Shown: positions 4,243-50,268 of the stretch, in pieces
Layout of the letters: each line of letters opens with the position of its first letter
How positions within the stretch are numbered: the first letter of the stretch is position 1
Source of the DNA: Octopus vulgaris
Taxonomy: Eukaryota
Reading direction: 5' to 3'
NCBI GenBank assembly: GCA_951406725.2
Contig: OX597831.1
Location: 42,284,001-42,348,000 of the forward strand
DNA: 64,000 bases
Program-made: the position numbers and the translations under genes
The notes under the pieces: generated by a model
What the model saw: the letters and a program-made list of their open reading frames with translations, nothing else
What the model was told of the DNA's origin: nothing
Databases searched by the model: none

Positions 4243-4258
4243 TGCTAATGCGTATACT

Positions 4259-4299
<41 letters not shown>

Positions 4300-4563
4300 C
4301 AGAAAAACAAAAGACGAAGACAGGTGTATAAACAACAATATATATACACATATACACATATATGTACACATACATACACACACACATATGTATATATATA
4401 TATATATGCATATATATATAATATATATATGTGTGTGTGTATGTATGTGTACATATATGTGTATATGTGTATATATATTGTTGTTTATACACCTGTCTTC
4501 GCTTTGTTTTTCTGTAACTATATATATATATATATATATATATAAACAGTATACGCATTAGCA
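4243..4563. repeat. ~320-bp near-perfect palindrome
   Basis: tgctaatgcgtatactgttt...cagaaaaacaaaagacgaagacaggtgtataaacaac mirrored around about 4403. Confidence 0.93.
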
Positions 4564-10719: not shown

Positions 10720-11231
10720 GAGAACAAATATAGATTGGCTGGCCACATTATGTGAATGAGGGACAACAAATGGACAGTCAAGGTGATTGAATTGGACACC
10801 AAGACAATGTACAAGATCTAGAGACTGATCAAAGGCAAGATAGTAAGATAATCTCACCCACTAACTGGAGACTACATGGGTATGACTGGCCAGAGACAGT
10901 CAGTGGTGGAAGGAGTCCAGGGAAACTACATGGGTATGAGTGGCCAGAGACAGTCAGTGGTGGAAGGTGTCCAGGGAAACTACATGGGTATGACTGGCCA
11001 GAGACAGTCAGTGGTTGAAGGAGTCCAGGGAAATTACATGGGTATGACTGGCCAGAGACAGTCAGTGGTGGAAGGAGTCCAGGGAAACTACATGGGTATG
11101 ACTGGCCAGAGACAGTCAGTGGTGGAAGGAGTCCAGGGAAACTACATGGGTATGACTGGCCAGAGACAGTCAGTGGTGGAAGGGTTCCTCCTATGGGAGC
11201 AATGAAGCCCTGGATATTGGATGGTGATGAT
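10720..11231 (+). mobile_element. RTE-like LINE C-terminal remnant containing a 54-bp minisatellite
   Basis: Decayed AGHIM.MRDNKWT...WTPR motifs; ends in gatggtgatgat. Confidence 0.65.
10867..11183. repeat. 54-bp tandem repeat, about 5.9 near-identical copies
   Basis: Unit ggaaactacatgggtatgactggccagagacagtcagtggtggaaggagtccag starting at 10867, 10921, 10975, 11029, 11083, 11137. Confidence 0.97.
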
Positions 11232-11388
11232 CTGGTTGAGGAAATTTCACTGCTATTTCTAGTAAACTGTATAACCACATCACAACTCCTATATTTACTT
11301 CGTATGCGCATGTGTGTGTTTGTATGTGTATATGCGAAGACTTGACGAAAAGTTTGTCTAATTAATATTCTATTTTCTGAAATTTCAG

Positions 11389-31936: not shown

Positions 31937-31977
<41 letters not shown>

Positions 31978-32117
31978 GAGGTTTAAGGATATCTGTTTCA
32001 TTCAAGAGAAATCTTCAGAAGATTTTTGAATGATCTGTAACTCCTTCTATAATAAATTAATTTTACTTGCTATGTATGAGTACCTTACTTACTGTGGTTA
32101 ACGAATCAACCCGGACC

Positions 32118-32152
<35 letters not shown>

Positions 32153-32154
<2 letters not shown>

Positions 32155-32391
32155 CAATTGAAGCATGGAAGGTGTTTATAAGCCATTTAAAACACACAAA
32201 CACCGTTAGATTAATTTCAGCATTTAAATTTAATTTGCCAAAATATTTTCATCGCTTTGAGACCATGACCTGTTTACTGACAAAATTCCGTGCTGCATAA
32301 TTTTGACAAATTAAATTTAAATGTTGAAGTGAATCTAATGGTTTTTGTGTGTTTTAAATGGCTGATAAACATCTTCCACACTGCAGTTGTT
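32153..32391. repeat. Fold-back with ~90-bp imperfect arms
   Basis: ggaaggtgtttataagccatttaaaacacacaaa / tttgtgtgttttaaatggctgataaacatcttcc. Confidence 0.88.
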
Positions 32392-32446
32392 TTCCTTCCA
32401 GCATATGATCCCATATCAAGTCACTTGCCATGCAAGTACATCTCTG

Positions 32447-32491
<45 letters not shown>

Positions 32492-32745
32492 TACATGTAT
32501 ACACACGCATATATATTTATGCCCATTGCATATAAAAACCATGCCAAAACTAACCTCACCTGTGCTAGTGCTCTATAAAAAGCACTGAATCCATTCTGCA
32601 GAGAGGTTGATGTTAGGAAGGGCATCCAGCTGTAAAAATCCTGCCAAAACAGACACAGAAGCCTGGGGTAGTTTTCTACTTGGCCGGCTCCTGTCAACCA
32701 ACCTATCCATGCATACATACTCTATGCTGTTTGTTTTCTACACAG

Positions 32746-32858
32746 GGACTGAATAAACAAGTAACTGAATTGCAGAGTGACCTGATGAAGAAACTTCAAC
32801 AGAAGAAGAATGTTGCCAAACATTCAAGACCAGATAAATTAAAAGAAGGAATTCAAAG
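32746..32858 (+). CDS. ITSN1: Intersectin exon l (GLNKQVTELQSDLMKKLQQKK...KEGIQ)
   Basis: tacacag acceptor, AAG|gtttgc donor; phase 0 in, 2 out. Confidence 0.85.
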
Positions 32859-34769: not shown

Positions 34770-35009
34770 GATCCATCAAGCTGAACAAAATCGCAGTCAT
34801 GGTAGATACTAGTGTGATGCAAATTGGCACCCTTGCCAGTGGCATGTAAAAGCACCCATTACCTTCAAAGAGTGGTTGGCATTAGGAAGGGCATCCAACC
34901 TTAGAAAACCGTGCCAAATCAGGCTGGAGTCTAGTGCAGCCCTCCAGCATGCCAGCCTGGTCAAACTGTCCAATCCATGCCAGCATGGATGATGATGATA
35001 ATGATATAT

Positions 35010-35502
35010 ATATATATATAAATTATAAAAAAACACCTTTTATCAATTCAAAATGAAAAATTAAATTGCACCATCTAGAAAATTATATATAATAGAAACA
35101 TTAAATATAAAATAACAATAATATACCGATGATTAAGTAATGTGCAAATAATAAATATAACATATATATATTATATTTTAAAAGATTATTTACGTATATT
35201 TATTAATTAATTATTTTATTGTTGTAGTTTATTTTTAACCTGATGGGTGGCTATATTTATATGGAAGTGATTTTACTACTACTACTAATTTTTTTACTAT
35301 AATTATTTCTTAAATATATCCACGAAACACGTGTCGTTATTCTGCCAAATATATACGTTTTATTTATTATTTGCACATTACTTAATCATCGGTATATTAT
35401 TGTTATTTTATATTTAATATTTCTATTATATGTAATTTTCTAGATAGTATAATTTAATTTTGAATTGATAAAAGGTGGTTTTTTTCTAATTTTTATATAT
35501 AT
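35010..35502. repeat. Fold-back with ~155-bp inverted arms and a ~180-bp spacer
   Basis: About 35010-35170 is the reverse complement of about 35349-35502 (e.g. ataccgatgattaagtaatgtgcaaataat). Confidence 0.92.
35236..35339 (+). ncRNA. Type I minimal hammerhead-ribozyme motif (Penelope-type), A9G variant
   Basis: TAAC-CTGATGG-GTGGCTATATTTA...TAAATATATCCAC-GAAA-CACGTGTC-GTTA: stems I, II (12/13 bp) and palindromic III are all present. Confidence 0.75.
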
Positions 35503-35785
35503 ATTTTGTGAAATTTGATTTAGCATTTCTAAATTGAATTTTTCCCTGTAAGTTAGGAATAATTTTCCCTAAAATTATTATGGCCTAGTGGTTAGGGCAG
35601 CGGACTTGCGGTCGGATGATCGCGGTTTCGATTCCCAGACCGGGCGTTGTGTGTGTTTATTGAGCGAAAAAACACCTAAAAGCTCCACGAGGCTCCGGCA
35701 GGAGGTGGTGATCCCTGCTGTACTCTTTCACCACTCTAAAGGCGGTGCTCCAGCATGGCCGCAGTCAAATGACTGAAACAAGTAC

Positions 35786-35823
<38 letters not shown>

Positions 35824-46657: not shown

Positions 46658-47720
46658 CAGCAAAAAATATTATGTGTGCACACACACTCACACACACACA
46701 CATACACTTGTGCTGTAGTTTCCATGTAAAATAAGGCATAAACCATTCAAGTCGATAGTACTTAAAAAACAGTGCTTTATCTAAAACATTTTCTTTGATA
46801 ATATTATTTTAATTGTCACGGCATGTGTTTTAGTGTTACACTACCAACAACCTTAACTATGGAATGAAATCCAGACATGACATAATGAAACAGTTACAAA
46901 GATATATGAATGCATAATGTATGCATCAAAATAGAAATAAGAACATTTGTATAACATGAAGTTACTTCATGTCCTGCCAGTTTTCATTATTCACAGCTTT
47001 TGCTGTGAATAACATCTTTTGCTAGTACAAAATAATATACGTATTTTATACTGCCACTACCCAACAATATTTAAGCTAAATTTCTCCCTGCTAAACATGT
47101 GTGCAGTCATGGTTGTGTGCTTAGAAAGCTTGCTTCACAACTATGTGGTTTTGAGTTCAGTTCCACCGTACAGCATCTTGAGCAAAAGTGTCTTCGAACA
47201 CAGCCTTGCAAGTTTGTATTTGGTTGACAGAAACCTATTGGTAGAACTTTTCAGGTTGGTTGATTTAACCATTGTATAGTTTTAATATCTCTCAATACCT
47301 CATCACTTGAGTGACAATAGTAGAGACCTCTCTGTTGCAAGCAATCAAACTTCCTGCATTCTTTCCATGAGACATGAAGATACCAAGAAGATTATGGGCA
47401 CTTCCCTTCCTCTGCTGACTATATAACTTAAATAACTAAGCTATAAACCCAGAGATACCTCTTGTTCTATTATCTCTAAGGACATTTATCACTTCATCGA
47501 AAAACCATTTACTGTGCCATTTAGCCCCAAATTTTTCCTGTATTGTTTGTGAATAATGACTTACCATGTTTGTTTGTTATTTTGTAATCTTTTTTTTATT
47601 TCCCTCACACTCAAACTTAAATTTCAAACTGATGTAATGTTCTTCTCTTTCAAAAGACAACCTGTTGTCGTGTGCCTTGTCTCTTTTGTGACATATCTTC
47701 CTTTATTATTGTTTTTATAG

Positions 47721-47803
47721 TTAAAAAGCAGTACAGAGCCCTTTATCAGTTTGAGGCCAGAAACCATGATGAATTGTCTTTGATGCCTGGAGATGTCATC
47801 ATA
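47721..47803 (+). CDS. ITSN1: Intersectin exon o (SH3A N-half: VKKQYRALYQFEARNHDELSLMPGDVII)
   Basis: tttatag acceptor, ATA|gtaagt donor; SH3 ALYxF...DEL...GD motif. Confidence 0.95.
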
Positions 47804-50268
47804 GTAAGTTATCATTACTCTGATATAAAAAAAAAAAACTTTCTTTTATTTGGGCAAGTGTCTTCTACTATAGCCTTGGGTCAATCAAAGCCATGTCAGT
47901 GGATTTGGTAGACAAAAACTGAAAGAAGCCTTTCATATGTATATATATATATATATCTCTGTCTGTATTTGTGTATCTGTGTTTGTACCCCCACCATCGC
48001 TTGACAATTGATGTTGGTGTGTTTACGTTACCTCTAACTTAGTGGTTTGGCAAAAGAGGCCAATAGAGTAAGTACTAGGCTTATAAAGAATAAATCCTGG
48101 AGTCGATTTGTTTGACTAATGGTAGTGCCCCAGCATGGCTGCTGTAAAAATGACTGAAAAAAGTAAAAGAATAAAAGAATACAAGAAGTCTTCAAATTTC
48201 CCAATGAAATGGAATGAAAAAAAGTTAAGTAAAATAAAGTAGAATCTTTAATCATTTACTTGTTTGTGATTAGACTGCAGCCATGCTGGAGCACTGCCCT
48301 AAGGAATTTTAGTTGAATGGATTGACACCAGTACTTATTTTTTTAAAGCCTGGTATTTATTCCAGTTGGTCTCTTTTACCAAACCACTAACGTATGGGGA
48401 TGTAAATAACCAACACTGGTTGTCAAGTGATGGTGGAGGACAAACACAGATACAAATATACACATGCACACACACACTTGCATGTGACAGGCTTATTACA
48501 GTTTTTGTTTTCCAAATCTGCTCGCAAGGCTTTGGTCAGCCCAAGGCTATAGCAGAAGACACTTGCCCAAGGTGCCACACAGTGGGACTGGACTTGGAAC
48601 CATGTGGTTGGGAAGGAAACTTCATGTTATCAAGAAATTTTCATCTACTTCCTGAGAATGCTTATGCCTCTCTCTCTCTCTCTACACACACACATACACA
48701 TGAAGATTCAACAAGCTCCCACATAATTCCCCATTACCAAATTTTTCTCTCAAGGCTATTGCAGGAGACACTTTCCCAAAGCATCACTTGGCAAGGTCTC
48801 AGAACCACAGAAGTGAAGCAAGTTTTTCAACCAAACAACCAAATATTTGCATTGAATTTTTTAAAAAATAATTTCAATCTTAAGTGCTTTGTTTCTTCAT
48901 TGTAATTCTTTCTAAGTTCTCAATGTTGTCAACATTTCTAGTTCTTAAGTACTCAGTACATGGAGTAGAGTATATTCCTTTGAAATGACTTCATCACTGC
49001 TTTGTTTATCATTTATCTTTTACTTGTCCCAGTCATTGGACTGTGGCCATACTTGGGCACTGCCTTGAAGGGCTTAATCAAACAAATTGATCCCTGCACT
49101 ACATTGTTGAAGATGTCTTTCCCTTTTCTAAAATGGTAGGAGTGTTACGTGAGGGAGATTTGGCTACTATTTCAAATTTAGTAAGTGCATCAAGATTCCC
49201 TATTTGGCTCATTGCAGATTTTATTTAGCAAGTTTTCAGTAAAAGTAAATGGTTTTTAATTTTCTCCACCAAGCTCATATGAGTGTAACTAAATATATGT
49301 CACAACATATTCTTATATTGCTAAATTAACTGCTCCAGCTTGTACGTGCCATGCATAAATAATTAGTCTGTCTTTACGTGCTGTAAAGAAGTTGTTTAGT
49401 CTCAGGTCAGCCATAAGGAGGCTAAACCTATGATCAAAGTATTTCCAACCATCACAATGCTATATCTCTTAGTCACAGCACATACAGAAACATGTTACCT
49501 AATGTGTTTAGTTCTAAGACACTAGGTGATTTAGTTGCTCTTTCTAGCAAGTCAACTGACTGCATAGAGGTTCATTCTTTGGTTTATCAATGGGACATTT
49601 CATACATCTCATTTGCAATGACTCTTTCATTTTCTGGCAAATGAAAATTAGTTTTATTCCTATTAAATACAAGCTACTATTTAGGAAACAAGGCCTAGAA
49701 AGGAGTTTCTCATGTTTTGTCTTTCAAGGGATACCAAAGACCTAGTTACCAGTTACCTGACAGTAGTTATACAAACATGTTGTAAAAAAGCAGAAATGCT
49801 GCCAAAACTCTTGATAGGTGCAGGCATAGCTGCATGGTTAAGAAGCTTGCTTTACCACCACATGGTTTTGGGTTCAGTCCCACTGTGCAGTACCCTGAGC
49901 AAGTTCCTTTTACTTTAACCTCAGGCCGATCAATGTCTTGTCACTGAATTTGGTAGATAGAAACTGTGTTGAAGCCCACTGTTTACATAATGTGTTGGTC
50001 TGTCCCACCATCACCACTTCACAACTTTGATTTGTTCAATTAATCAACTCCAGAGTGGTACTCCAGCATGACGACAGTTCAATGTTTGAAGCAAGTAAAA
50101 GATGTAAAGTGGTTTTTTGTATGTGTGTGGTCACAGTTGTTTCGCAGTATTGTATTTCCGTTGAGTCGTAATTCTCATAGATGTTTCCTTGTCTCTCCAA
50201 GTGCCATAAAAAGTTTTAATTGATAATATTTGTTTATTCATTTGTATTTCTTATTTTCTTTTTAACAG

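What the first reader, a model, noticed from the sequence alone, without database searches (positions are those of the whole stretch)
35236..35339. Penelope-type hammerhead ribozyme inside a 490-bp fold-back, sense to the intersectin pre-mRNA
Seen: stem I TAAC/GTTA, core CTGATGG, a 13-bp stem II with one mismatch, GAAA, palindromic stem III ACACGTGT and GTC cleavage triplet (C at 35335). It sits in the spacer of ~155-bp inverted arms. Established: Penelope-like elements carry minimal type I hammerheads with short palindromic stem III, which cleave best as dimers, and often leave inverted terminal repeats. Inference: the AT-rich fold-backs here are non-coding, ribozyme-bearing retroelements (retrozyme-like). 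This copy has A9G and is probably impaired.
Basis: partly seen in the sequence, partly recalled or inferred. Interest (0 to 1): 0.72.

Follow-up and report, generated by a model that had tools for sequence, protein, structure and literature searches.

The report
Decayed Hydra-type Penelope end with hammerhead
This is the broken-off, head-to-head tail end of a protein-coding Penelope-type jumping gene lying in an intron of an intersectin-like gene; its self-cutting RNA motif is real but mutated and likely dead here, while many sister copies begin right at the predicted cut, which may record the RNA cutting itself in living cells.

Summary
The hammerhead motif and the fold-back are real. They are not a non-coding retrozyme. 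The 574-bp insert is a 5'-truncated 3' end of a 5.9-kb, protein-coding Penelope-like element (PLE), joined head to head to a shorter inverted copy. Full-length copies carry a reverse transcriptase/endonuclease frame with Hydra-clade motifs 2.9 kb upstream of the same hammerhead. The family has A9 in 50 of 53 copies, so the window's G9 is decay. A sister family keeps the core while all three stems differ. The fold-back is an insertion product: 18 of 80 loci have one, and 17 of the 18 carry the tail on one arm only. The window's other fold-backs hold no hammerhead. One extra result: 24 of 82 sampled copies begin at +1 to +4 after the predicted cut (8 exactly at +1) and 1 at -1 to -4. Two other families show no such pile-up (0 of 23, 1 of 27), so cleavage in vivo is plausible but unproven. 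This scan noted Hydra-type fold-backs and cut-site pile-ups before on other DNA.

The parts
35008..35169 (-). Short inverted arm: copy of the element's 3' end without the tail, beginning about +14 after the predicted cut; its outer end runs into (AT)n
   Evidence: 88% to full-length copy L193 over 137 nt
35170..35499 (+). Long arm: 5'-truncated 3' UTR / pseudo-LTR of a Hydra-type PLE, from about -166 to the tail-less terminus
   Evidence: 85-86% to L193 over 434-447 nt
35236..35339 (+). Type I hammerhead motif; G at core position 9 (35246, family A), stem II mismatch at 35319 (family G), predicted cut after 35335
35224..35227 (+). Predicted distal stem I strand GTAG, pairing with 35342-35345 beyond an internal loop
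   Evidence: predicted fold; untested
35500..35581 (+). Optional 'tail'; the same sequence lies directly upstream of the ATG in full-length copies
   Evidence: (L194 92% over 72 nt)
35004..35019 (.). (AT)n microsatellite at the left junction, the likely target; it ends an older dispersed repeat (about 34800-35003)
   Evidence: family D17
35582..35800 (+). Unrelated tRNA-like dispersed repeat abutting the tail (not part of the PLE)
   Evidence: family D16; the tRNA-like label is from the sequence and recall
32740..32850 (+). Approximate upstream exon of the intersectin-like host gene
   Evidence: boundaries estimated by eye
47711..47812 (+). SH3 exon of the host gene; best PDB matches intersectin-1 and -2

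Best explanation
The insert is the truncated 3' end of a protein-coding, Hydra-type Penelope-like retrotransposon plus a shorter inverted copy of the same end, and its hammerhead carries two substitutions relative to the family, so it is likely an inactive passenger in the intron. Shown: identity to full-length copies, the coding frame and its motifs, the substitutions, the head-to-head layout, the tail on one arm, the (TA)n context. Inferred: the element's endonuclease nicked both strands of a (TA)n tract; each nick primed reverse transcription of sense RNA at one of two start points (with and without tail); both cDNAs stopped early and were joined at their 3' ends, giving the fold-back; the copy then decayed. 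Inferred with less certainty (about 45%): in this family part of the RNA was cut by the hammerhead before copying, so that many cDNAs ran off at the cut and were trimmed back by 0-30 nt; the window's short arm, starting at +14, would be one of these.
For: L193 holds, in one stretch, an inverted arm, ATG, broken frame, 2.9-kb 3' UTR, this hammerhead and the tail; it matches the window at 85% over 447 nt. L195-L197 match the window likewise. Motifs DKT, YRDD, CxCx5C, YIG, CxxC-E-N-CxH and no CCHH fit Hydra as defined in PMC8557442 section 11. 54 exact copies of the intact core, 0 for the control; A9 in 50 of 53 copies chosen without the pattern and in 106,328 of 106,611 summed contig depth in run X15. 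A9 pairs with the general base G12 and is called invariant (PMC2553840, PMC11300833 passages). A sister family (80% identical over 368 aa) has the core at the same place with different stems I, II and III. 18 of 80 loci are outward-pointing pairs; 17 of 18 have the tail on exactly one arm (P 7e-5 against 0.5), while 30 of 56 single copies have it. Both-strand priming and two start sites were shown in vitro for Poseidon (PMC11167929). 5' ends: 24 of 82 at +1..+4, 8 exactly at +1, 1 of 58 at -1..-4 (Fisher P 9e-6); 7 of the 8 are preceded by TT.
Against: Pfam and PDB gave no match to the family's own RT piece, so clade placement rests on motifs and on comparison by eye with published Hydra sequences; no tree was built. 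The element is twice the usual Hydra length and reads KWK, not RWK. No intact frame of this family was among 97 scored places, so late mobilisation in trans by the sister is possible. Within the family the core is barely more conserved than its flanks (95% against 92-94%). Stems I and III are not predicted to form in a monomer, even in an intact copy. No cleavage assay exists, and no measurement of A9G was found. For the cut-site step: anchors further 3' show a broad rise in 5' ends from +45 to +5 (20 of 26 at risk stop in +5..+24, 0 of 6 in +1..+4, a sample mixed with related subfamilies; 25 of 30 stop in +1..+30); the sister shows 0 of 23 and the L070 family 1 of 27 at +1..+4; the sister's pile-up is at a spliced RNA start about as far from the 3' end. 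PMC11167929 found no RNA ends at the cut and no need for cleavage in vitro.
Confidence: 0.92

Rival explanations
1. A non-autonomous, non-coding retrozyme or fold-back element that moves as a 490-bp unit.
For: The insert has no frame; most copies of the 3' end are short; no intact frame of the family was found; a tandem 595-bp hammerhead unit of another family does exist in this genome.
Against: The sequence is continuous with a coding PLE; 5' ends are spread from +93 to -5,578; only 3 of the top 30 loci, the window included, match the whole query and the junctions differ; non-LTR retrozymes are defined as tandem repeats (PMC7229834 passages; bioRxiv 2026.07.22.740005 part 1).
Confidence: 0.04
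2. The pile-up of 5' ends at +1 marks a capped transcription start, or a limit on copy length about 165 nt from the priming site, that happens to coincide with the cut site; the hammerhead plays no part.
For: In the sister family short copies are spliced and start at a fixed point about -67, a similar distance from the 3' end, and none of 23 starts at its cut. C(-1)G(+1) is a pyrimidine-purine step. The rise in 5' ends is broad, +45 to +1.
Against: The edge is sharp at the predicted bond (8 at +1, 1 at -1..-4). None of the 8 has an extra G; 7 have TT in front, which CpG decay does not explain because read-through copies mostly keep C at -1 (46 of 53). No spliced copy of this family was seen.
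Confidence: 0.45
3. The insert has been co-opted by the host as an intronic ribozyme or long double-stranded RNA that regulates intersectin splicing or editing.
For: Sense orientation; a very stable 155-bp duplex is predicted, and such duplexes are ADAR substrates in cephalopods (recalled). The hammerhead is outside the duplex.
Against: The copy has lost A9 and a stem II pair and differs from the family at 9 of 315 positions, as expected for neutral decay; it lies more than 2 kb from either flanking exon; thousands of similar copies are scattered.
Confidence: 0.04

Closest known systems
Hydra clade of C-terminal endonuclease PLEs, e.g. Hydra-1_Obim of Octopus bimaculoides, Penelope-13_HM, Penelope-1_NV (PMC8557442 section 11 and supplementary files S1, S2)
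   Same: Single RT-EN frame, DKT, CxCx5C linker, no CCHH, CxxC and CxH around E and N, (TA)n target, hammerhead near the 3' end; Penelope-13_HM also has a 5'-truncated inverted copy. The Penelope-1_NV hammerhead shares CTGATGA GTGG..CCAC GAAACA.
   Different: 5.9 kb against <3 kb (2.9-kb internally repeated 3' UTR, Asn-rich insert in the frame); KWK for RWK; hammerhead and protein differ clearly from Hydra-1_Obim (compared by eye); stem II is 13 bp with a 51-nt loop.
Complex insertions of EN+ PLEs: inverted pLTR plus optional tail (Adineta Pen2a, PMC3846280 passages; PMC8557442 passages)
   Same: Head-to-head inverted 3' ends, 5' truncation, tail on one arm, Asn-rich insert, no clear target duplication in a microsatellite.
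   Different: The tail is 80-105 nt, not 30-40; the one-arm rule is counted here (17 of 18). PMC3846280 favoured an antisense template, whereas spliced copies of the sister family point to a sense template.
Poseidon PAc of Anolis (PMC11167929, parts 1-2 of 4)
   Same: Two reverse-transcription starts bounding the tail, priming on both strands, AT-rich target, protein-assisted hammerhead in the pLTR.
   Different: Different clade; its hammerhead overlaps the start codon; no RNA ends at the cut were found there, whereas genomic 5' ends pile up at the cut here.
Metazoan non-LTR retrozymes (PMC7229834 passages; bioRxiv 10.64898/2026.07.22.740005 part 1 of 5)
   Same: Type I hammerhead, AT-rich, dispersed, PLE-related.
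   Different: Retrozymes are short non-coding tandem units; this is a fragment of a coding element with one hammerhead and no tandem unit.

Membership tests
Type I hammerhead of PLEs | Core CUGANGA, GAAA, NUH | tested here: met
   Met by the family (30 of 53 copies complete; A9 in 50 of 53); this copy fails at position 9
Type I hammerhead of PLEs | G10.1-C11.1 pair, long stem II, short palindromic stem III | tested here: met
   the palindrome forms an intermolecular duplex at -10.9 kcal/mol in cofold
Type I hammerhead of PLEs | Stem covariation around a constant core | tested here: met
   Across families only: sister CCAC/GTGG, TTGTC/GACAA, ACAATTGT, GTA; other families. None within the family
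Type I hammerhead of PLEs | Self-cleavage | not testable with these tools
   Only the indirect 5'-end signal
Hydra-clade PLE | Single frame, RT then C-terminal GIY-YIG-type endonuclease | tested here: met
   Broken frame in L193/L194 with YRDD and IYIGST; intact 838-aa sister frame; no Pfam hit for the family's pieces
Hydra-clade PLE | DKT in place of DKG | tested here: met
   SDKTKN in L194
Hydra-clade PLE | RWK motif | tested here: inconclusive
   RIKWKAYYF: K for R, aligned by eye with RMRWKAFFF of Hydra-1_Obim
Hydra-clade PLE | CxCx5C linker; CCHH absent; CxxC and CxH around E and N | tested here: met
   CTCRDKSTC, CSLC..E..N..CKH in L212, L214, L219, L222
Hydra-clade PLE | (TA)n insertion preference and canonical hammerhead | tested here: met
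Hydra-clade PLE | Generally short (<3 kb); described as typical, not diagnostic | tested here: not met
   5.9 kb; sister unit 6.0-6.3 kb
Hydra-clade PLE | Groups with Hydra in an RT tree | not tested
   Published reference sequences were seen only as text
Non-LTR retrozyme | Short tandem units, each with a hammerhead | tested here: not met
   One hammerhead per arm, no head-to-tail unit seen in the loci printed or mapped
Non-LTR retrozyme | Non-coding, non-autonomous origin | tested here: not met
   Continuous with a PLE frame
Fold-back / MITE-like element | Fixed terminal inverted repeats shared by copies | tested here: not met
   18 of 80 loci, junctions differ

The most novel reading that the evidence does not exclude
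In this family the PLE hammerhead cut the element's RNA in the germ line before reverse transcription: roughly a quarter of the cDNAs that reached the ribozyme ran off exactly at or 1-3 nt short of the scissile bond, often gaining untemplated A's, so the genome holds a base-precise record of hammerhead cleavage in vivo, and cleavage limits insertion length; the sister family instead runs off at a spliced transcript start.
Probability: 0.45. Interest if true: 0.68.

Novelty: new member of a known kind. Interest (0 to 1): 0.4.

Why it matters
The single copy is ordinary. The family matters for one open question: what PLE hammerheads do. PMC8557442 calls their function unclear, PMC4209133 found low activity in vitro, and PMC11167929 found no RNA ends at the cut. 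If the pile-up of genomic 5' ends at +1 is run-off from cleaved RNA, thousands of dead copies give an in vivo read-out, and two related families in one genome, one stopping at the cut and one at a spliced start, make a direct comparison. The result also warns that short hammerhead fold-backs in such genomes should be annotated as PLE ends, not as retrozymes or MITEs.

Tried and rejected
Rfam scan: no hammerhead hit. PDB and Pfam on the family's RT piece: nothing. A Pfam GIY-YIG search of the genome surfaced other PLE families and not this one; family B (775 aa) shares 110-160 nt with this 3' end at 73-80% but has it inside its 3' UTR, so it was rejected as the parent. Expression: no RNA holder listed; only contigs were available, so nothing can be said on RNA ends or levels. 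Laying contigs gave no empty-site joint and no usable list of 5' junctions. No target-site duplication could be read. No spliced copy of this family was found. Two scripts used a reference lacking the anchor word and were rerun (redone as 81; first half of 89 redone in 93). Literature: no paper measuring A9G was found; searches for genomic truncation at a PLE hammerhead cut listed none by title or abstract, but the library is partial and bioRxiv supplements were not open, so absence from print is not established.

Full report
OBSERVATION. A type I hammerhead descriptor found only this site on either strand of the 64-kb window and nothing in two control sequences. Rfam does not score it. The arms align at 89.6% over 163 columns, 35008-35169 against 35349-35503, and the hammerhead lies in the unpaired spacer. 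Exons of an intersectin-like gene lie on the + strand on both sides. The genome has 2.8 Gb in 227 contigs; an octopus is my guess from that, from the repeat landscape and from the one named relative.

THE FAMILY. A DNA search gave 3,027 first-look candidates, 40 scored. An exact pattern for the intact core matched 54 times, the control 0; a 23-mer near the 3' end matched 2,397 times, a count that includes related subfamilies. Among 53 hammerhead-spanning pieces from 54 loci chosen without the pattern, 50 have A9, 50 have the G that completes stem II, and 30 have a complete core; the window differs from the majority at 9 of 315 positions. Contigs of three public runs, under three organism labels, read A at 35246 in more than 99% of summed depth. 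A9 forms a sheared pair with the general base G12 and is described as invariant (PMC2553840 and PMC11300833, passages); I found no measured rate for A9G, so 'impaired' is inference. The core is barely better conserved than its flanks within the family (95% against 92-94%), as expected when copies decay neutrally. Evidence for selection on the fold comes from a sister family, which has the core at the same place before the tail with all three stems changed, and from further families.

IT IS THE END OF A CODING ELEMENT. Walking 5'-ward through longer copies led through an AT-rich, internally repeated 3' UTR to a frame. L193 holds an inverted arm, the start codon, a broken RT-endonuclease frame, 2.9 kb of UTR, this hammerhead and the tail in 5.9 kb, and matches the window at 85% over 447 nt. 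In L194 the 'tail' lies directly before the ATG, the usual pseudo-LTR permutation. The protein motifs (DKT, YRDD, CxCx5C, YIG without CCHH, CxxC-E-N-CxH) are those that define the Hydra clade in PMC8557442 (section 11 read; supplement part 2 and search hits). It is not Hydra-1_Obim: length, hammerhead and protein differ by eye. It is twice the usual length and reads KWK for RWK; no tree was made. Among 97 scored places no intact frame of this family appeared; intact 821-862-aa frames belong to the sister, 80% identical over 368 aa.

THE FOLD-BACK IS AN INSERTION PRODUCT. Of 80 non-redundant loci, 18 hold an outward-pointing pair (the window is one), 56 a single 3' end, and 6 no 3' end within the stretch held; flanks were mostly 1.5 kb, so distant arms are missed. 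Junctions differ from locus to locus. The tail is on exactly one arm in 17 of 18 pairs (P 7e-5) but on 30 of 56 single copies. I tested this after an earlier scan note suggested it. Inverted 5'-truncated copies with an optional tail on one arm are described for PLEs (PMC3846280 passages; PMC8557442 passages), and priming on both strands from two start sites was shown in vitro (PMC11167929 parts 1-2). The simplest mechanism, inferred, is twin priming at a (TA)n tract followed by joining of the two cDNA ends. The window's other fold-backs have no hammerhead and match none of five reference elements.

5' ENDS AND THE CUT SITE. Several short arms began 2-4 nt after the predicted cut, so I sampled with an 18-mer lying at +4 to +21 (553 matches). 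I fetched 80 stretches from the first 100 listed places, holding 82 matches; I left out 9 places already held and the last 9 listed. Result: 24 of 82 begin at +1..+4, 8 exactly at +1, and 1 of the remaining 58 at -1..-4 (Fisher P 9e-6). The 9 held places are 8 read-throughs and 1 start at +3, giving 25 of 91. Starts at +2 to +4 are uncertain by a base or two in AT-rich flanks. Seven of the 8 copies starting at +1 are preceded by TT and none by G, which fits untemplated addition at an uncapped end better than cap copying (inference). Against a simple reading: with an anchor at +93 the rate of 5' ends climbs from 0.004 per nt (+65..+93) to 0.039 (+5..+24), and 0 of 6 copies at risk start at +1..+4, in a sample mixed with related subfamilies; with an anchor at +46, 25 of 30 start in +1..+30, 3 of 8 at risk in +1..+4 (two of them shared), and 5 read through. 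The picture is a wall at the cut with a broad shoulder 3' of it. Two other families lack the wall: 0 of 23 in the sister and 1 of 27 in the tandem L070 family. In the sister, 8 of 30 sampled copies begin with a short sequence joined across a 1.8-kb GT-AG intron (7 exact joins, 1 imprecise), so their pile-up near -67 is probably a transcript start, at a distance from the 3' end similar to this family's cut. A start site or length limit at +1 therefore remains as likely as cleavage.

COMPARISON AND VERDICT. It works like a canonical EN+ PLE end and passes the Hydra motif tests that could be run; it fails the tests for a non-LTR retrozyme (PMC7229834 passages; bioRxiv 10.64898/2026.07.22.740005 part 1 of 5) and for a fold-back element with fixed arms. 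Minimal PLE hammerheads, their dimer requirement and opposite-strand pairs are described in PMC4209133 (parts 1-2 of 4). The copy is a new member of a known kind and probably inert. The family-level 5'-end signal is the only part that bears on an open question; my searches listed no paper reporting it, but earlier unreviewed notes of this scan describe the same in other genomes and also the rival 'capped start' pattern (seen after my test). Interest 0.40.

Noticed in passing
L261 6105-7921 (intron) and L468, L469, L475, L476, L484, L485, L490: Sister Hydra-type family with intact 838-aa frame: short fold-back copies are spliced across a 1.8-kb GT-AG intron in the 3' UTR, which points to a sense, spliced RNA template with a fixed start; PLEs are noted for retaining introns.
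   Followed up: partly
L070 600-2000; L434-L440, L445-L446, L458-L460: A 595-bp hammerhead-bearing unit occurs in head-to-tail tandems and inverted pairs (388 exact matches of a 23-mer): a retrozyme-like family distinct from the finding; no frame was looked for.
   Followed up: partly
L133-L136, L139, L146 (e.g. L134 5383): A young Neptune-like PLE family with intact 781-aa frames carries a hammerhead-like motif with U3 and A8 in place of C3 and G8, the covariation reported for Schistosoma PLEs; stem I is weak (3-4 bp).
   Followed up: partly
L157, L183-L192; L140, L141, L151: A second young Neptune-like family (775 aa) has, just after its stop codon, one or two 110-160-nt blocks 73-80% identical to this family's 3' end; no canonical hammerhead was seen by eye in its 3' UTR. 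Possible capture of sequence between PLE clades.
   Followed up: partly
L266 2414-5278, L268: Further Hydra-type families with intact 843-962-aa frames, long Asn-rich inserts and their own hammerhead (palindrome ACAGCTGT).
   Followed up: no
window 4243-4563 and 31940-32482: Two (TA)n-flanked fold-backs without a hammerhead; similar short fold-backs flank many fetched loci. They may be ends of other PLE families; not traced.
   Followed up: partly
window 10813-11242: 54-bp tandem repeat of about 6-8 units just upstream of the EF-hand-like exon (family D8).
   Followed up: no
window 35500-35581 and L193 3' UTR: The tail contains CCCT|GTAAGT and the start of the 3' UTR has ATG|GTGAGT, both 5'-splice-like; no spliced copy of this family was found.
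   Followed up: partly
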